A stretch of 64,000 nucleotides of DNA. It comes from Eledone cirrhosa. Its lineage: Eukaryota. The stretch's first letter is position 1; every line of letters starts with the position of its first letter. Below are positions 22,152-57,676 of this stretch, piece by piece. The position numbers were made by a program, and so were the translations under genes. The notes under the pieces are model-generated. The model made no database searches and had not been told where the DNA came from. It was given only the letters and a program-made list of their open reading frames with translations. The stretch lies in NCBI GenBank assembly GCA_964016885.1, contig OZ024756.1:28582001-28646000 (forward strand), written 5' to 3'.

Positions 22152-22770
22152 TGACCCAGGCTGTCGAAAGTTAACATAGAGGTATTTCAGGTGACCCAGG
22201 CTGTTGAAGGTTAACGTAGAGGTATTTGAGGTGACTCAGGCTGTTGAAGGTTAACGTAGAGGTATTTGAGGTGACCCAGGCTGTTGAAAGTTAATATAGA
22301 GGTATTTCAGGTAACCCAGGCTGTTGAAGGTTAACGTAGAGGAATTTGAGGTGACTCAGGCTGTTGAAGGTTAACGTAGAGGTATTTGAGGTGACCCAGG
22401 CTGTTGAAAGTTAATATAGAGGTATTTCAGGTAACCCAGGCTGTTGAAGGTTAACGTAGAGGAATTTGAGGTGACCCAGGCTGTTGAAAGTTAAGATAGA
22501 TATTTAAGGTGACCTAGGCTGTTGAAAGTTAACATAGAGGTATTTGAGGTGACCCAGGCTGTTGAAAGTTAAGATAGAGGTATTTAAGGTGACCCAGGCT
22601 GTTGAAGGTTAACGTAGAGGAATTTGAGGTGACCCAGGCTGTTGAAAGTTAACGTGGAGGTATTTGAGGTGACCCAGGCTGTTGAAAGTTAAAATATAGA
22701 TTTTTGAAGTGACCCAGGCTGTTGAAAGTTAAGATAGAGGTATTTGGAACAAACTAAGATGTTGAAGGTT
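22152..22770. repeat. 40 bp minisatellite (gtgacccaggctgttgaaggttaacgtagaggtatttgag), about 15 copies
   Basis: Contains an exact 120 bp higher-order duplication: 22231-22350 = 22351-22470. Confidence 0.95.
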
Positions 22771-27323: not shown

Positions 27324-27368
27324 ATAACCGACGATCGTTTCTCACTGTTTCGCGGTTATCAAGGTTAT
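27324..27368 (-). ncRNA. Minimal type I hammerhead, U3-A8 core variant
   Basis: AUAACC-UUGAUAA-c-CGC-gaaaca-GUG-a-GAAA-CGAUCG-UC|GGUUAU. Stem I 6 bp, palindromic stem III ACGAUCGU, GUC site. Confidence 0.65.
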
Positions 27369-48583: not shown

Positions 48584-48827
48584 TTATATATATATATTTA
48601 TAAAAAGGAAGTTTGTTTGTCTGTATGTTGACCATTAATAACACTAAATAAAATTGGTAATAATTAAGTTATTTTGTATGTTTTCAACTAATTTGACCTC
48701 CGAAAAGCACTCAATTGCCTTTTCTCCCAAAATTGAATAACGAGTGAGGGCATGTCCCTTCACTCTCTAGTGTCATATTCGAAATTATTTCTGAATATAT
48801 TTTTCTCTCTTTTTCTTCTCTCTGTAG

Positions 48828-48969
48828 ATGTGTGGAGTCTTGGAGTTGTTCTGTACATGTTGGTTTGTGGTACACCACCTTTCTATGAAGCTAATGACAG
48901 TGAAACATTAACCATGATCATGGATTGTAAATATAAGTTCCCAGGTCATGTGTCAAAGGACTGTCAGTC
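48828..48969 (+). CDS. SNRK: SNF-related Ser/Thr kinase exon (kinase subdomains IX-X)
   Basis: Polypyrimidine-tag acceptor, gtaagt donor, 142 bp. (D)[35 protein letters not shown] is SNRK-like. Confidence 0.9.
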
Positions 48970-49049
48970 GTAAGTATTAACCCTTTACTGACTAAAATGG
49001 TGGTGGGAATCCTGTAGTCTTTAGATCGTATCTGCCTTTATGGCAGGCG

Positions 49050-49848
49050 ATGTATGGCTTTCTGACAGATTGTAGCCTTCTGACAGACTCTATGGCCTTC
49101 TGACAGACTCTATGGCCTTCTGACAGATTATGTGGCCTTCTGATCGAATATGTGGCCTTCTGATCGAATATGTGGCCTTCTGATCGAATATGTGGCCTTC
49201 TGATCGAATATGTGGCCTTCTGATCGAATATGTGGCCTTCTGATCGAATATGTGGCCTTCTGTCAGATTATGTAGCTTTCTGACAGACTGTGTGGCCTTG
49301 TATTAGACTGTGTGGCCTTGTATTAGACTGTATGGCCTTGTATTAGACTGTATGGCCTTCTATTAGACTGTATGGCCTTCTGTTAGACTGTATGGCCTTC
49401 TGTTAGACTGTATGGCCTTCTGACAAAGTGTGGTCTTCTGACAGACTGTATGGCCTTCCGACAGACTGTGTGGCCTTCCGACAGACTGTGTGGTCTTCTG
49501 ACAGACTGTGTGGTCTTCTGACAGACTGTGTGGTCTTCTGACAGACTAATGTGGTCTTCTGACAGACTAATGTGGTCTTCTGACAGACTGTGTGGTCTTC
49601 TGACAGACTGTGTGGTCTTCTGACAGACTGTGTGGTCTTCTGACAGACTAATGTGGTCTTCTGACAGACTGTGTGGTCTTCTGACAGACTGTGTGGTCTT
49701 CTGACAGACTGTGTGGTCTTCTGACAGACTGTGTGGTCTTCTGACAGACTGTGTGGTCTTCTGACAGACTGTGTGGTCTTCTGACAGACTGTGTGGTCTT
49801 CTGACAGACTAATGTGGTCTTCTGACAGACTGTATGGCCTTCTGACAG

Positions 49849-49850
<2 letters not shown>
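49050..49850. repeat. 20/21 bp intronic minisatellite (tgtggtcttctgacagactg), about 40 copies
   Basis: Seen directly in sequence; organised as blocks of sub-variants. Confidence 0.95.
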
Positions 49851-49885
<35 letters not shown>

Positions 49886-49897
49886 TTTGTTTTTCAG

Positions 49898-50113
49898 TTT
49901 AATTTCTAGTATGCTGATCAGAGAACCCAACCAACGTGCCAGTTTGGAACAAATAATGAATCATGCTTGGTTGAAAAGTGGAGATGTTCCATACTCGAGC
50001 ATTAGCGTCAACATACCTCTGCTTTCTCGAAGTCTAGTCTCTGCTGATGATCATTCATATATTGTGGAACGCATGATAGAAGGAAGGATGGCCACTAAAG
50101 AAGAAATTGCAGT
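49898..50113 (+). CDS. SNRK: SNRK exon (subdomain XI, linker, start of UBA domain)
   Basis: ttttcag acceptor, gtaaga donor, 216 bp; phase 2 joins TC|T. LISSMLIREPNQRASLEQIMNHAWL...IPLLS...HSYIVERM. Confidence 0.9.
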
Positions 50114-50579
50114 GTAAGACATGGAATTTTGGATTTCTATTATTTTTTTCTTATCTGTTTGTTACCATATTTATCGGGTGGCAATTGGTAGAGTCGTTAA
50201 GACATCAGATTAAATTCCTTTGTTTTTTTTGGGGGGGGTTCTTTTTTGTTTGTCCTGACTTGCTGTGTTCTGAGTTCAAATCCTCAGGTCGACTTTGCCT
50301 TTCAACCTTTGAAGGTCAATAAAGTTTTCTTCTTCTTTTCTTAAGTTACCCTCTTTCGAAGGTGAAGCATTCATTTTTTTTTTTGCTTTTTCTAATGATT
50401 AGAATATATGCGACTTGCCATATCCACATAAACATCCACACCACCGATGTTGTCCAGGCAGTGGCTGAGTAAACTGTAGCAACATGAATAAAGTGTCTTG
50501 ATCAAGGGGTCGATTTAATCAACTTTCCCTTTCCCTCAAAGTTGTTAGCCTTGTGCCTAAATCAGAAACCATTATTATT

Positions 50580-50910
50580 GCTAAGAGCGGTGAATCGGCA
50601 GTGTCGGTAGAACATCAGACAACATGCTTTGCAGCATAGAATTACGGCTCTTTACATTCTGAATTCAAATCCCACCGAGGTTAGCTTTGCCTTTCATCCT
50701 TACGGGGTCGATAAAATAATGTACCAGCCACGCACTGGGGTCGACTTATTCGTCTCCCCACCCCCCAAATTGCTGGCCTTGTGCTTATATAAGAAACCAT
50801 TATTATTATTATTATTGCCTTTCATCCTTACGGGGTCGATAAAATAAAGTACCCAGTAATGTACTGGGTAATTGCTGGCCTTGTGGCAAAAGTAGAAACA
50901 ATTATTATTA
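50580..50910 (+). mobile_element. SINE family B plus duplicated 3' half
   Basis: Head, central domain and (ATT)n tails. Confidence 0.8.
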
Positions 50911-51291
50911 TTATTATTATTTTCATCAGCAGGTAAAACACGAGTGAGTGAGTGAGTGCCAGTGGTTGTGATTTATTTTTGGCTCAGTTGTTGCTGCTCC
51001 CTTCTCAGTGCTAGTAGTGACGGGTTATAGTGGTGGAGGTGGAGGTGAGTGTTGCACCCCTCCTCCTATCAAAACGGAAGTCAGTTCAGGTTACTTACTT
51101 ACTGTAGCTCTGTCTTTTACATTACACAATGCCACTGTTTGTTATTACTACACATAGTATATAGTACATAGTATATAGTCAATAGTACATAGTATAACCT
51201 TTTCTAATATAGAGCTTCTGCTGGGATAAATTTATCTTCTCACCTTGCTTGGGACCATATATATATATTAGAGGGGGAGTGAGTATGTGTG

Positions 51292-51585
51292 TATATATAG
51301 TAATAATAATAAATTTGAAGACTAAAATCCAAAGAGGGCGCCATAAGGATAAATATATATCAAATATATAAGAACCCAAATAATGAAGTATTATATTCGT
51401 TTTTTCCCGTTCTTTGCCAGGGAACGTTTCCACGAACCAAAGTATCGTCTTCCTGTCTTCCTCCGGTTGCAACGTTTTTTGAAATATTCACTTCTGGGGT
51501 CACAGATTGACTTTGTTAGTTTCAGAAGATCCCGTTAAGGGTGAAAGCAGCGATTCTTTGCTTAAACTTTAATCTGTTATTTTAT
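51292..51585. mobile_element. Second copy of the 29171 repeat with its 3' part inverted in front; hammerhead-like motif at 51518-51568 (+)
   Basis: 51298-51376 is the reverse complement of 29338-29412; 51435-51582 matches 29171-29318. Confidence 0.7.
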
Positions 51586-51597
51586 ATATATATATAT

Positions 51598-51937
51598 AGA
51601 GGCACATGGCTTAGTGGTTAGAGCATTGGCCTTGCAATCGAAAGGTTGTGAGTTCAATTCTCAGACCGGGTGATGTGTTGTTTCCTTGAGAGCAAGACAC
51701 TTTATTTCACATTGCTCCAGTTTACTCAGCTGTAGAAATGAGATGATAGGGACTGGGGTCCATATCATTCCACTGCAGAGTGGTTGTGGAGATGCCACGG
51801 CAAAAAAGCACCCATCACTCACTGTAAATGAGGTTGGTGTTAGGAAGGGCATCCAGCTGTAGAAATCAAGCCAGAATCAGTTCCCGTTCCACCCTTGCAA
51901 GCAGGGAAAAGCGGACGTAAAATGAGGATGATGATGA
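51598..51937 (+). mobile_element. SINE family A, full length
   Basis: Paralogue of 1924-2262. Confidence 0.88.
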
Positions 51938-51949
51938 TATATATATATA

Positions 51950-52709
51950 TATAATTGAATATAAAAGAAAAACGAACACAGATATATAAATATATGTGTT
52001 CAAATTGCAAGGGACCAGATTCGCTAAGGTGAAAAGAATACTAACTATAGACAATAGGGTTTGCTTGTCTCAATTTAAGAAAAAATCAAGAAAATAAATA
52101 CAAACCGGAACTACCAATCACCCAGACAGCTTGGTGCTGTTTCGCAAAGTTAATTATGAATAGAATTACCAATTCTTTTATATTCAATTATAATATACGG
52201 CTCGCAAAAATCTCTTTCTTAGAGCTATTTTATTGTAAGAGACTATTTTGAGTTCCTAACTCAATATATACCTTTGATATATTCGGCACCGTTAATTTGT
52301 TGAGCTATTTCAAATATCAAATAAACCTGGCTGCTATTTTTAGTGGTGTAAGTTTGTGATACCATGTGCATTATTATATATAGCACACTATTCAGTTACT
52401 TAATATTCTTAGAAGTGTCTAGGATACTAATTCATCACCCACTGATGAGCAACAATTGGTAATTCTATTCACAATCAATATTGCGAAACGGCACCAAGCT
52501 GTCTGGGTGATTGGTAGTTACCACAATTCCGGTTAGTATTCTTAGGTTAGTATTCTATATTAGGTCCCTTGCGATTTGAACACACATATATGTATATATC
52601 TGTGTTCGTTTTTCTTTTATATTCAATTATAATATACAGAAAAAATCTCTTTCTTAGAGCTATTTTATTGTAAGAGACTATTTTGAGTTCCTAACTCAAT
52701 ATATACCTT

Positions 52710-52717
<8 letters not shown>
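51950..52717. mobile_element. Retrozyme / Penelope pseudo-LTR-like non-coding element
   Basis: Direct repeats of about 105 bp at 52173-52280 and 52612-52717 (period 439), an internal hammerhead, and an inverted partial copy at 51950-52174. Confidence 0.75.
52434..52511 (+). ncRNA. Type I hammerhead ribozyme with canonical core
   Basis: AUCACCCA-CUGAUGA-GCAA...UUGC-GAAA-CGGC-accaa-GCUG-UC|UGGGUGAU. Stem I 8 bp, stem III 5 bp, predicted cleavage after C52503. Confidence 0.88.
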
Positions 52718-52761
<44 letters not shown>

Positions 52762-52842
52762 AAGTACATATGTATATATGTATGTATAAATATGTAAACC
52801 CATGCTACCGTGGAAGATAGACGTTAAACGATGATGATGATG

Positions 52843-52875
<33 letters not shown>

Positions 52876-52884
52876 TATGTGTGT

Positions 52885-53200
52885 GTATATCAGTATGTAC
52901 ATGTATTTATGTATATATGTGTATATATCAGTATCTACATATATTTATGTATATATGTGTGTATATCAGTATGTACATATATTTATGTATATATGTGTGT
53001 ATATATCAGTATCTACATATATTTATGTATATATGTGTGTATATCAGTATGTACATATATTTATGTATATATGTGTGTATATCAGTATGTACATATATTT
53101 ATGTATATATGTGTGTATATCAGTATGTACATATATTTATGTATATATATGTGTATATATCAGTATGTACATATATTTATGTATATGTGTGTGTATATAT
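52885..53200. repeat. Roughly 38-40 bp minisatellite derived from a TA/TG microsatellite
   Basis: Repeated atatcagtatgtacatatatttatgtatatatgtgtgt. Confidence 0.85.
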
Positions 53201-53539
53201 ATATGTATATATATGTATGTGTTTATATATGTGTGTTAAACACACACTCATCCATGTAGAATGTGGTGCAAAGACACCAGAATAATTGTGACTGTTTTCA
53301 CTAAACTACTGTATAGAAACTTGTTATATTAGCCCAATTAGTGGAATAGTACTGCTACTAGTAGCAGTAGTAGTAGAAGTATAACACATTGCTATTGGTA
53401 GTTTTGTATAACTTGTAGGTGAACACACACTGTCATAAATTTTTGTGTGTATGTAGTCATATATATATATATATATATATATATTATTACTATATACGAT
53501 ATTAAACAAATGGAAACTACATTTTAATATGATATCTAT

Positions 53540-53862
53540 CATCATCATTCATTTTCATTTTACATCCACTTTTCCCTGCTTGCAGGGTGGGATGGGAACT
53601 GATTCTGGCTTGATTTCTACAGCTGGATGCCCTTCCTAACACCAACCTCATTTACAGTGAGTGTTGGGTGCTTTTTTGCTCCACGACCACTTTGCAGTGG
53701 AATGATAGGGTCCCTATCATCTCATTTCTACAGCTGAGTAAACTGGAGCAATGTGAAATAAAGTGTCTTGCTCAAGGAAACAACACATCGCCCGGTCTGA
53801 GAATTGAACTCACAACCTTTCGATTGCAAGGCCAATGCTCTAACCACTAAGCCATGTGCCTC
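53540..53862 (-). mobile_element. SINE family A
   Basis: Reverse complement of the family A consensus with short deletions. Confidence 0.85.
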
Positions 53863-54095
53863 CATCTATATATATATATACATATATATATATAATATTA
53901 TATATATATAATATTATATATATATTATATTATATATTATATTATATATATATATATTATATTATATATATTATATATATATTATATTATATTATATATA
54001 TATATATATTATATATATATATTATATATATATATATATTATATTATATTATATATATATATATATTATATATATATATTATATATATATTATAT

Positions 54096-54136
<41 letters not shown>

Positions 54137-54236
54137 CAATCGGGGGTAACCACAGTACATAGCAGTGTATAAATATTTAATATAGAAGAGGCTTCTACAG
54201 GACTAGAACTGTTTTATTCGGTAGAAATTATCAAGA

Positions 54237-54287
54237 AGCTTCCTGATGATTTCTCACGAATGAAACAGTTCTAGTCCTGTAGAAGCT
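54237..54287 (+). ncRNA. Type I hammerhead ribozyme
   Basis: AGCUUC-CUGAUGA-u-UUC-ucac-GAA-u-GAAA-CAG-uucuaguc-CUG-UA|GAAGCU; GUA site. Confidence 0.75.
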
Positions 54288-54372
54288 TTTCTATATTAAA
54301 ATATATATATATATATAATATATATATATATAATCATCATCATACGTCCGCTTTTCCCTACTTGCAAGGGTG

Positions 54373-54410
<38 letters not shown>

Positions 54411-54411
54411 G

Positions 54412-54461
54412 GCTTCTACAGGGCTAGAACTGTTTCATTTGAAGGAAATCATCAGGAAAGC
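54412..54461 (-). ncRNA. Type I hammerhead, core intact but stem II weak
   Basis: Minus strand gcuuuc-CUGAUGA-uuuccuucaaau-GAAA-CAG-uucuagcc-CUG-UA|GAAGC. Confidence 0.6.
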
Positions 54462-54997
54462 TATCTTGATGATTTCCTTTGAATGAAACAGTTCTAGTCC
54501 TCTAGAAGCCATTTCTATATTAAATTTGTTGTATATACTCTACTAATGTATTGAGTACCTTACTTACTGTGGTTACCCCCGATTGAACCCAGGACTCACA
54601 CTCACACACATATATAGATATATAGATAAATCTGGATGGATTCAGTTTGAAACTGGTTAGACCATTACTGAACAGTGTCTGGATTTAGCTGTCGAAATGG
54701 CCAAATCTTTTCATATTACCCACTCTACTGCCCCAAGTATTGAGTACTCTGGTGAGTTATGGTCAACCTGGTGTTTTACTACACCCTCTCATGTATGTAT
54801 AAATATGTGTGTGTATATATACACATATATGTATGTATATATGTGTGTGTGTATATATATTATATATATCATCATCATCATCATCATCATCTTCGTTTAA
54901 CGTCCATTTTCCACGCTAGCATGGGTTATATATATATATATATATATATATGGTTTATATATATATATGGTTTATATATATATATATATATATATAT

Positions 54998-55035
<38 letters not shown>

Positions 55036-55370
55036 CAAACACAAACAGGCATACACATTTTTTGTATAAGCACAGAACAGCTTTTCTTTCAAACATTTTA
55101 TATTAACATGACTGTATTCTAGTTTGATCATTTAATGATGTAACTGGAACACATTCATATTTTTAGTATAGCAGAGAGAGAGACCACCCTGAAGTAAACT
55201 AGATTTCAGCTATTGTGTACTTCAAAATAGAAGATTTTATGTTATTGGCTTCATTTGTTTAATTTAATTTTTTTTCTTCTCTAATCTGTTTTCTTGTCAT
55301 TACTGAATGAATTACCAGCATTAAATCTAAATTTAAGCCATCCATTATAACTTCATGGAAGAAACTTTTC

Positions 55371-56381
55371 TTAACCCTTTAGCATTTACATTATTCTATA
55401 TTGGTGGTGGATTGGCAGTATCGGTAGAGGGTCGGACGCCATGCTTTCCAGCATAGTTACGTCCCTTTACGATCTGAGTTCAAATCCCGCCGAGGTTGAC
55501 TTTGCCTTTCATCCTTGCGGGGTCGATAAAATAAAGTACCAGTAATGTACTGGATAAATGCTGGCCTTGTGCCAAAGGTAGAAACAATTATTCTATATTG
55601 GTGGTGGATTGGCAGTATCAGTAGAGGGTCAGATGACATGCTTTGCAGCATAGAGTTACGCCCCTTTACGGTCTGAGTTTAACCCATTAGTGTTCAAACC
55701 GGCCAAAACCGGCCAGAATTCTCTACCTCTTTCTGTTGAAACTGGCTGTAACTGGTCACTCAAACTGATGCTGAGGTATTGTTCTCAAAATAAATACTTT
55801 CAAAATCTCATAGATTCGATATTATGTGAGATAATTGTGTGAGGTAAAGCCTTTACCATGAAAATATAATAGTATATATAAAATAATGTGAAAGCTAAAG
55901 GGTTAAATCCCACCGAGGTTAACTTTGCCTTTCATCCTTATGGGGTTGATAAAATAAAGTACCACTAATGCACTGGTTAATTGCTGGCCTTGTGCCAAAA
56001 GTAGCAACAATTATTCTATATTTACTATTGTATTTTCGTGGTAAAGGCTTTATCTCACATAATATCGAATCTATGAGATTTTGATAGTATTTATTTTGAG
56101 AACAATACCTTAACATAAGTATGAGCAGCGAGTTAAAACCAGTTTGAACAGAAAGAGGTGAGAGAATTCTGGCCAGATACAGCTGGTTTAAATACTAAAG
56201 GGTTAAACCAGCCATATCTGGCCAGAATTCTCTTACTCTTTTTGTTCAAATCAGTTGTTCATACTGATGTTAAGGTATTTATTCTCAAGATTCGATATTG
56301 TGTGAGATAATTTTATGAGGTAAAACCTTTACCATAAAAATATAATAGTAAATATAAAGTAATGTAAATGCTAAAGGGTTT
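55371..56381. mobile_element. Nested piggyBac-like MITE / SINE B / MITE complex
   Basis: Outer TTAA MITE 55371-56206; two SINE B copies bounded by attattctatatt (55390, 55587, 56010); inner TTAA MITE 55679-55906; inverted MITE 56203-56381. Confidence 0.8.
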
Positions 56382-56777
56382 AGATATGTTTAAAACACCG
56401 ACTTAACCCTTTTGTTACCAACCCAGCCAAAACTGGCTCTGGTTCTATGAAATAAAACCACCCATTTAAAAATTTTCCAACAATTTTATGTAAGAACCTT
56501 ACATTGAGATAATTTTAGTAAATCCCTCAAAATCTTTCATGAATTAGTTGAAACAGTGTATTTCATGAGAAATGCAGTCACGAAAAGGTTAAACCTATTA
56601 TTGTTTGATGTAATAAACTTTTCTTAAGATATGTTCCAAACAGTAACTTAATAACGAGAAAGTTAGTTATATTACTTAACCCGATCAAAGGCTGTGTATT
56701 TCATTAGAATGGTAAAGCCTTTACCGTGAAAATATGATAGAGTAATGTAAATACTAAACGGTTAATAATGAAATAAA

Positions 56778-56930
56778 TAATGGTTTCTGATTTAGGCACA
56801 AGGCCAACAATTTTTTAAATTTATCTATCCCGTAAGGATGAAAGGCAAAGCTAACCTCAGCGGGATTTGAACTCAGAATGTAAAGGGACGTAACTATGCC
56901 GTGAAGCATGGTATCCGGCGCTCTGCCAAT
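56778..56930 (-). mobile_element. SINE family B
   Basis: Reverse-complement copy. Confidence 0.75.
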
Positions 56931-56931
56931 A

Positions 56932-57110
56932 ATAAAGGGAGCTCCTTGATCATGCAGTCAAGTGATTATCAAAGGGAGTCTCTTGACCAAATGGTCAAGC
57001 GATTGTAAAAGGAGCCTCTTGACCACACAAGTGATTGTAAAAGGAGCCTCTTGACCAAACAATCAAGTAATTGCAAAAGGGAGCTCCTTCACCAGATAAC
57101 CATGTGACTG
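56932..57110. repeat. Degenerate tandem repeat of about 33-39 bp
   Basis: aaaggagcctcttgacca...caagtgattgt, about 5 copies. Confidence 0.7.
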
Positions 57111-57150
57111 CTAAACATACTTCTTAGTTGAGTTTTTCTTCTGTTTGCAG

Positions 57151-57345
57151 ATCTCTGGAAAAAGATTCTTATGACCACATTGCTGCCACGTATTATCTGA
57201 TGATTGAGCGCAGGTTGAAAGCTAAGCAGTCCGAGATGACGTTAACGACTCAGGGTGGGAAGTCGGCTAATGCTTACCAAATTCGTAAGAACTCAGCACC
57301 AGCCGATGGGAAGCCCCACCTAGAACCGCTCGCTCTTTCTCCTCG
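57151..57345 (+). CDS. SNRK: SNRK exon (UBA C-terminal helix and start of regulatory tail)
   Basis: tttgcag acceptor, gtaagt donor, 195 bp; phase 2 joins GT|A. SLEKDSYDHIAATYYLMIERRLK. Confidence 0.88.
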
Positions 57346-57676
57346 GTAAGTCTCCCAACAACCCCATTTCTCTCTAAACACATCAATCTTTCATTTTATA
57401 TTTATATTTTATCATTATTGTAAATGTTGTGGTTGTTATTGTTATTATCATCACGTCCTCCCTCAGGATTGATCTTAATTCCTCGATTAGTCAAAATAGC
57501 AGACCACATCCAATGATCTTAGGTATCATTATTGTTATTATTATTATTACTTGGGAGAGGGAGGAAGCCAATTATATTGATTGCAGAACCTAAACTACCA
57601 GTGAAGTACTGGGGTTGATAAAACCATCTTCTCTGTTCTCCCAAATTACTGGCTTTGTGCCAATGCTAGAAATTAT

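What the first reader, a model, noticed from the sequence alone, without database searches (positions are those of the whole stretch)
51950..52717. Retrozyme-like 439 bp unit with a textbook hammerhead, terminal direct repeats and an inverted 5' copy
Seen: canonical CUGAUGA/GAAA/GUC core with an 8 bp stem I at 52434-52511. The ~105 bp direct repeats 439 bp apart look like 1.25 turns of a circular or tandem template. The antisense partial copy (51950-52174) has CAGC/GCUG in stem III where the sense copy has CGGC/GCUG, a pairing-preserving change. There is no ORF. Inference: a non-coding retrozyme or pseudo-LTR whose monomer could be a ~440 nt self-cleaved or circular RNA.
Basis: partly seen in the sequence, partly recalled or inferred. 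Interest (0 to 1): 0.88.

Follow-up and report, generated by a model that had tools for sequence, protein, structure and literature searches.

The report
Hammerhead retrozyme with Penelope-type insertion scars
This is one damaged copy of a non-coding repeat of about 511 bases, present in at least hundreds of copies, that carries a predicted self-cutting RNA motif and was likely pasted around this animal genome by the enzyme of a Penelope-type jumping gene, a known kind of element whose insertion scars are unusually clear here.

Summary
In detail: a type I hammerhead at 52434-52511 (cut predicted after C52503), ~110-bp direct repeats 439 bp apart, and a back-to-back inverted partial copy. Three details are wrong. 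The family unit is ~511 bp; 439 comes from deletions whose main junction occurs once in the genome. CGGC is a private mutation. This locus has one complete ribozyme, so it cannot release a circle by double cleavage.

The family is dispersed (273-1,218 exact probe matches) and ~4% diverged. Its 3' ends fall at two fixed sites ~85 nt apart (87 of 100) and run into (TA)n; 5' ends are scattered. In inverted pairs one arm ends at each site (63 of 68). These are Penelope-like-element (PLE) hallmarks, and Neptune-type PLEs abound here, but no partner with matching ends was found.

Verdict: a non-autonomous PLE-mobilised hammerhead repeat, i.e. a non-LTR retrozyme. A circular RNA template is plausible but unshown; cleavage and expression were not tested. 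New member of a known kind, with modest extra value as insertion-scar evidence for the retrozyme-PLE link.

The parts
52173..52717 (+). Direct arm: about 1.2 passes of the ~511-bp family unit, internally deleted to a 439-bp period, ending at 3' site B
51950..52177 (-). Inverted 5'-truncated arm, back to back with the direct arm (5-nt overlap at 52173-52177); holds the 3' half of the hammerhead, keeps the segment deleted in the direct arm, ends at 3' site A
52434..52511 (+). Type I hammerhead motif: stem I 8 bp, CUGAUGA at 52442-52448, extended stem II, 5-bp stem III, predicted cut after C52503
52173..52282 (+). 5' direct repeat (pseudo-LTR-like: end of the previous pass through the unit)
52612..52717 (+). 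3' direct repeat; contains site A (~52635) and the A-to-B 'tail' (about 85 nt in the family)
52535..52560 (+). Locus-private ~58-bp deletion/rearrangement; with a 12-bp deletion at ~52357 it explains the 439-bp spacing
52712..52759 (.). (TA)n tract at the end of the direct arm (likely target)
   Evidence: family-wide pattern
51936..51955 (.). (TA)n tract at the end of the inverted arm, itself at the end of a tRNA-SINE-like repeat
50114..57150 (+). Host context: GT..AG intron of a protein-kinase gene; the element lies in the sense orientation
   Evidence: flanking exons join in frame

Best explanation
The locus is an old, partly deleted copy of a dispersed ~511-bp non-coding hammerhead repeat that was likely inserted by target-primed reverse transcription using the RT and GIY-YIG endonuclease of an autonomous Penelope-like element, which makes it likely a non-LTR retrozyme (non-autonomous PLE). 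SHOWN: multicopy family, two fixed 3' ends, (TA)n flanks, scattered 5' ends, seamless partial tandems, and inverted arms ending at the alternative site. INFERRED: the PLE protein, likely a dimer, nicks both strands of a (TA)n tract and primes cDNA at two internal sites (A and B) on the element RNA. The two cDNAs stop at varying points and are joined 5'-to-5', giving the direct arm plus inverted arm seen here. Most templates were uncut or religated at the hammerhead site; a few percent were cut. Templates longer than one unit are either tandem transcripts or a ligated circle (about even odds). This copy is likely inert as a source of circles.
For: Exact probe matches in the genome: 273, 640 and 1,218, with reversed controls 0. 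Census of the first 100 of the 640 matches: 3' ends 48 at A, 39 at B, 13 elsewhere; 5' ends spread over ~600 nt; 31 runs exceed one unit. (TA)n follows 106 of 137 A ends, 108 of 122 B ends and 20 of 76 other ends. Of 121 back-to-back junctions, 68 had both arms ending at A or B, and 63 of those were one of each; the window is such a pair. Passes within one insertion share subfamily variants (258 of 294 against 164 expected), as do inverted and direct arms (493 of 547 against 303). The genome has 10,595 first-look GIY-YIG candidates, 150 scored. One is a 938-aa RT+GIY-YIG ORF with 97.8% identical pLTRs ending in (TA)n (L131). A younger sister family shows the same design. The features match those described in PMC8557442, PMC3846280 and PMC11167929.
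Against: No autonomous element with matching ends was found: none among 50 GIY-YIG loci, and three PLE 3' ends scored no better than shuffles against this family. Only 50 of thousands of PLE loci were examined. The A-B tail is ~85 nt against the 30-40 nt described for PLEs (PMC8557442). The ribozyme has a stable stem III, unlike the minimal ribozymes of animal PLEs (PMC4209133). The hammerhead fold is a median 3.3 kcal/mol above the minimum-energy fold in 109 copies. Target-site duplications cannot be read in (TA)n.
Confidence: 0.82

Rival explanations
1. The repeat is only the pseudo-LTR of an autonomous PLE not yet found, and the copies are short 5'-truncated insertions of it.
For: All end features are those of autonomous PLEs. 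Only part of the family was read (about 220 loci).
Against: Copies longer than one unit run from site B straight back into the hammerhead with a ~511-bp period and no ORF. A tblastn of the L131 ORF against 219 family loci hit nine loci (two are the same place); the two strongest (L096, L128) lie 600-700 nt from the unit, as expected for nesting in a PLE's terminal (TA)n; the others were not inspected. The sister family is also ORF-less at up to 3.45 units.
Confidence: 0.08
2. One reading: a ~440-nt monomer is released from this locus and circularised, with freely permuted ends from rolling-circle copying.
For: Ribozyme motif intact here; direct repeats present.
Against: The 439-bp junction occurs once in the genome. 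The locus has one complete ribozyme. Family monomers are 498-511 nt. 3' ends are fixed, not permuted.
Confidence: 0.03
3. A SINE-like element mobilised by a LINE (for example RTE or CR1), or a MITE or satellite that happens to carry a hammerhead.
For: 5' truncation and inversions also occur with LINE enzymes (established knowledge). SINE-like repeats are common nearby.
Against: Two alternative internal 3' ends used one per arm (63 of 68), seamless partial tandems and no poly(A) or LINE-type tail are PLE traits. Copies are dispersed and mostly under two units long, so not a satellite.
Confidence: 0.05
4. The intronic ribozyme at this locus has been kept for a host function, such as regulating the kinase pre-mRNA.
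For: Sense orientation in a 7-kb intron; core intact despite nearby deletions.
Against: 116 of 169 family ribozymes still have an intact core, which is unremarkable at ~4% divergence. No orthologous-locus conservation could be tested.
Confidence: 0.02

Closest known systems
Non-LTR retrozymes of animals (PMC7229834; PMC7761336; bioRxiv 10.64898/2026.07.22.740005)
   Same: Non-coding, AT-rich repeat unit with one type I hammerhead with a stable helix III; monomers plus rare dimers and multimers; co-exists with autonomous PLEs; predicted circle folds better than shuffles (z -2.9 to -3.5).
   Different: Unit ~511 bp, above the 150-450 bp of PMC7229834 but inside the 51-972 bp of the preprint. Mostly dispersed 0.3-1.5-unit insertions rather than arrays. 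Extended stem II. Fixed double 3' ends and inverted arms were not described for retrozymes in the parts I read. No circular RNA or cleavage data here.
EN+ Penelope-like elements, Neptune-type, and non-autonomous Chlamys such as MRC1 (PMC8557442; PMC3846280)
   Same: Partial tandems forming pseudo-LTRs, 5' truncation, adjacent inverted truncated copy, optional tail at one end, microsatellite targets, hammerhead in the repeat.
   Different: No ORF; tail ~85 nt rather than 30-40; full rather than minimal hammerhead; no 3'-end similarity to an autonomous family found.
PAc Poseidon element of the green anole (PMC11167929)
   Same: Two internal RT start sites that mark the genomic tail; AT-rich targets cut on both strands; uncut RNA the main template. 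This fits 90 of 100 copies reading well through the cut site.
   Different: PAc is autonomous, and no RNA ends at its cut site were found; here a small excess of genomic breakpoints lies at the cut.
Plant LTR retrozymes (as described in PMC7229834 and the 2026 preprint)
   Same: Non-autonomous, hammerhead-bearing, terminal direct repeats.
   Different: Those have type III hammerheads in true LTRs with PBS, PPT and 4-bp TSD; this is type I, once per unit, with variable 5' ends.

Membership tests
Non-LTR retrozyme | Type I hammerhead motif in each repeat unit | tested here: met
   116 of 169 copies with intact core; 90.3% of cells paired
Non-LTR retrozyme | Non-coding, GC below 50%, unit of a few hundred bp | tested here: met
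   GC 0.32-0.33, 498-511 nt, longest ATG ORF 18-51 aa
Non-LTR retrozyme | Tandem copies with two complete ribozymes (family level) | tested here: met
   3 cut-to-cut monomers (L004, L006, L015) among 114 intact motifs held
Non-LTR retrozyme | Two complete ribozymes at this locus (the preprint's 'active' criterion) | tested here: not met
   One complete motif; the inverted arm lacks CUGAUGA
Non-LTR retrozyme | Self-cleavage of the RNA | not testable with these tools
   Indirect only: one main compensatory pair and an excess of breakpoints at the cut
Non-LTR retrozyme | Expression as monomeric linear and circular RNA | not testable with these tools
   No RNA holder listed
Penelope-like element | ORF with RT and GIY-YIG endonuclease (autonomous PLE) | tested here: not met
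   No ORF in the unit; none seen attached
Penelope-like element | 5'-truncated partial tandems forming pseudo-LTRs | tested here: met
Penelope-like element | Adjacent inverted 5'-truncated copy | tested here: met
   121 back-to-back junctions among held loci
Penelope-like element | Optional 3' tail at one end (two alternative 3' ends) | tested here: met
   87 of 100 ends at A or B; 63 of 68 pairs have one of each; length ~85 nt, longer than described
Penelope-like element | Insertion into microsatellites (Neptune, Naiad) | tested here: met
   214 of 259 A/B ends run into (TA)n; empty sites not seen
Non-autonomous PLE | 3'-end similarity to an autonomous partner | tested here: inconclusive
   None in 50 GIY-YIG loci, a small part of 10,595 candidates
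Penelope-like element | Target-site duplication | tested here: inconclusive
   Both flanks are (TA)n
LTR retrozyme (plant type) | Type III hammerhead in two true LTRs | tested here: not met
   Type I, absent from the terminal repeats

The most novel reading that the evidence does not exclude
The genome holds a fossil record of a PLE enzyme copying retrozyme RNA circles: a PLE dimer primes at two fixed sites on a ligated ~511-nt circle, one per target strand, and rolls past the hammerhead junction for up to ~3.5 turns. The excess of truncations and junction deletions at the cut site would be scars of cleaved and religated RNA. That would tie the animal retrozyme circRNA cycle to a specific enzyme class and give a minimal substrate for working out how PLEs build tandem and inverted insertions.
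Probability: 0.3. Interest if true: 0.62.

Novelty: new member of a known kind. Interest (0 to 1): 0.36.

Why it matters
Animal retrozymes were proposed to be mobilised by PLEs, on the basis of shared ribozymes and co-occurrence (PMC7229834) and pLTR homology in frogs (2026 preprint). PMC7761336 says their repeats show no motif pointing to the partner. This family carries the PLE insertion signature itself, with a near-strict one-site-per-arm rule (63 of 68) that fits two-strand priming by a PLE dimer. A short ORF-less RNA with two mapped start sites, plus apparently intact PLE ORFs in the same genome, makes the link testable in vitro. The window locus itself is an ordinary decayed copy.

Tried and rejected
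Rfam at gathering threshold: no hammerhead hit, only a weak tRNA match at 1932-1989; not taken as evidence against the motif.

Sequencing runs: no RNA holder listed; three runs of unrecorded type from one sample. Their contigs show the family with joints to opposite strands and (TA)n loose ends at site B; depth was not used as a copy number. At 99% likeness the window's private stretches had no cover; no conclusion drawn.

Autonomous partner: family and cross-family profiles over 50 GIY-YIG loci found only nested relatives 62-84% alike. Tail alignments to three PLE 3' ends were at shuffle level for this family. The sister family scored above shuffles against two of them (0 and 6 of 300); the stronger is likely due to (TA)n inside the tested stretch and was rejected. 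Widely spaced pairs proved to be a local duplication (L091) or separate insertions with other repeats between (L211-L213).

Circle against linear tandem by recurrent differences between passes: not decisive. The main family has a few same-direction recurrences (position 14: 4 against 0; 473: 3 against 1; 498: 5 against 2), which leans to linear templates or mutation hot spots. The young sister family has none among 43 differences in 5,214 sites, which leans to a single-unit template.

One search had a period bug; its end classes were discarded and redone. The strand imbalance (110 against 163) did not recur and was dropped. Earlier scan findings: nothing returned.

Full report
SETTING. The window is G000:C17:28582001-28646000 in a 3.0-Gb genome of 1,796 contigs, rich in microsatellites. 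The finding lies in a GT..AG intron at 50114-57150 of a + strand protein-kinase gene: one exon hits Pkinase, another weakly UBA_SIK3, and the exons flanking the intron join in frame.

OBSERVATION. The hammerhead is present at 52434-52511 with the cut predicted after C52503. A descriptor scan gave 3 motifs in the window and 1 in total over 20 shuffles. Rfam did not detect it at the gathering score. The forced hammerhead fold is -19.5 kcal/mol against a minimum of -21.1. The direct repeats and the inverted arm are real. The inverted arm starts inside stem II, lacks CUGAUGA, overlaps the direct arm by 5 nt and keeps a segment that the direct arm has lost.

THE FAMILY. A search with 52173-52717 gave 2,865 first-look candidates, 40 scored. 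Exact probes matched 273, 640 and 1,218 times, with reversed controls at 0, so copy number is at least hundreds for the ribozyme region and over a thousand for the tail. The period is ~511 bp. The window's 439 results from a 12-bp and a ~58-bp deletion, and the second junction is found once genome-wide.

RIBOZYME CONSERVATION. The core is intact in 116 of 169 copies. Loop 3 varies from 2 to 10 nt between subfamilies while stem III holds. On 66 aligned copies 90.3% of cells pair; one stem III pair is G-C in 34 and A-U in 20, and one stem I pair changes on both sides in 2. The number of pairs with a double change (2) does not exceed shuffles (2.3), so this is about one inherited compensatory event: supportive, not proof. 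Three loci hold two intact motifs in tandem, giving monomers of 508, 511 and 498 nt whose circular folds lie 2.9-3.5 standard deviations below 40 shuffles each.

INSERTION ANATOMY. I took the first 100 of the 640 matches (contig C1) as a census. 3' ends were 48 at site A, 39 at site B (~85 nt further on) and 13 elsewhere, some of these being internal breaks or tandem read-through; 5' ends were spread over ~600 nt; 31 runs were longer than one unit. An earlier sample of 75 occurrences agreed. A and B ends run into (TA)n in 214 of 259 cases against 20 of 76 other ends. Of 121 back-to-back junctions, 53 had an arm ending elsewhere; of the other 68, 63 had one A arm and one B arm. The window is such a pair: direct arm at B (52717), inverted arm at A (~51950). 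After dropping duplicated loci, passes within an insertion agree at polymorphic sites in 258 of 294 comparisons (164 expected) and inverted and direct arms in 493 of 547 (303 expected), so both come from one template lineage.

SISTER FAMILY. Relatives 62-84% alike sit in (TA)n beside PLE loci. One (L148) has 1,208 candidates, best copies 92-99% identical, a period of 528 in L287, arrays up to 3.45 units, two 3' ends 70 nt apart and the same arm rule. Passes within an insertion differ at 43 of 5,214 sites in the 24 loci analysed (6 of 30 dropped as duplicates).

DOES THE RIBOZYME CUT IN VIVO? Ninety of 100 census copies extend more than 4 nt upstream of the cut, so most templates were uncut or religated. 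But 8 of 98 5' ends fall within -4 to +3 nt of the cut against 2.2 expected (Poisson p 0.002; window chosen after seeing the data). A genome-wide pattern for breaks exactly at the cut gave 11 hits: by eye 7 truncations, 3 internal deletions ending at the cut and 1 double substitution. Controls at +4 and +14 nt gave 3 and 5 hits, of which 1 and 2 were truncations; binomial p 0.022 for 10 against the 8 raw control hits. This is a modest sign that cleaved RNA sometimes served as template. Pausing of RT at the structure is an alternative.

PARTNER. GIY-YIG has 10,595 first-look candidates, 150 scored. Most of the 30 read carry a Cys-rich linker before the nuclease, which PMC8557442 ties to Neptune and to microsatellite targeting. 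L131 has a 938-aa ORF with RVT_1 (28 bits, just under the cut-off) and GIY-YIG (over it), pLTRs 97.8% identical, a minimal U3-A8-type hammerhead and a (TA)n end. No family among 50 loci shares ends with this unit, so the partner is inferred, not identified.

MECHANISM. Shown: the anatomy above. Inferred from PLE biochemistry (PMC11167929): nicking of both strands of an AT-rich target, priming at two internal RNA sites, early stops, and joining of the two cDNAs 5'-to-5'. Open: whether the template is a tandem transcript or a circle. Each subfamily has its variants in both passes, so tandems were rebuilt from one unit repeatedly; a circle or a template jump between terminal repeats would both do that. 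The recurrence test was mixed.

LITERATURE SEEN. bioRxiv 10.64898/2026.07.22.740005: parts 1-3 of 5, abstract to discussion; its supplements are closed and could list related families. PMC11167929: parts 1-2 of 4. PMC7229834: parts 2-4 of 6. PMC4209133: part 1 of 4. PMC8557442, PMC3846280, PMC7761336 and PMC13282606: passages only. No supplements were read. Six searches listed no paper on this family or on PLE tails and inverted arms in retrozymes. The library lacks most subscription papers, and Repbase and Dfam were not available, so the family may already be catalogued.

VERDICT. A new member of a known kind: a non-LTR retrozyme or non-autonomous PLE family, of which the window holds a decayed intronic copy. 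Interest 0.36. The most novel reading, rolling copy of an RNA circle by a PLE dimer, has probability 0.3 and would deserve 0.62.

Noticed in passing
window 54180-54285 and 54401-54500: A second hammerhead-bearing repeat: minimal type I motif at 54243 (+) inside short palindromic, MITE-like units flanked by (TA)n; hits 40 held loci.
   Followed up: partly
window 27330-27362 (- strand): Third hammerhead-like motif with a U3-A8 core variant; not checked for copies.
   Followed up: no
window 51307-51575: Another repeat family nested in (TA)n, with direct and inverted pieces in 38 held loci; it has a hammerhead-like stretch with a non-standard core that did not pass the descriptor.
   Followed up: partly
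window 51583-51930 and 53530-53880: Inverted pair of tRNA-SINE-like repeats flanking the element, 90% identical overall and 97-100% in blocks; could pair in the kinase pre-mRNA.
   Followed up: partly
window 48737-57349 (+): Exons of a protein-kinase gene with a UBA-like domain; resemblance to SNF-related kinase is recalled, not tested.
   Followed up: partly
L131 (G000:C1:145868100-145878000, - strand): Apparently intact Neptune-type PLE: 938-aa RT+GIY-YIG ORF, 97.8% identical pLTRs, minimal U3-A8 hammerhead, (TA)n end.
   Followed up: partly
L148:7770-8230 and L278-L307: Younger sister retrozyme family (about 64% alike over ~200 nt; period ~530; arrays to 3.45 units; same two-end rule), a better target for RNA tests than the window's family.
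   Followed up: yes
L262, L265, L269: Copies with internal deletions whose downstream breakpoint is exactly the hammerhead cut, as expected if a trimmed 3' end was joined to a cleaved 5' end.
   Followed up: partly
window 22152-22746, 49051-49849, 52856-53220: Minisatellite arrays of 40, 20 and 38 bp.
   Followed up: no
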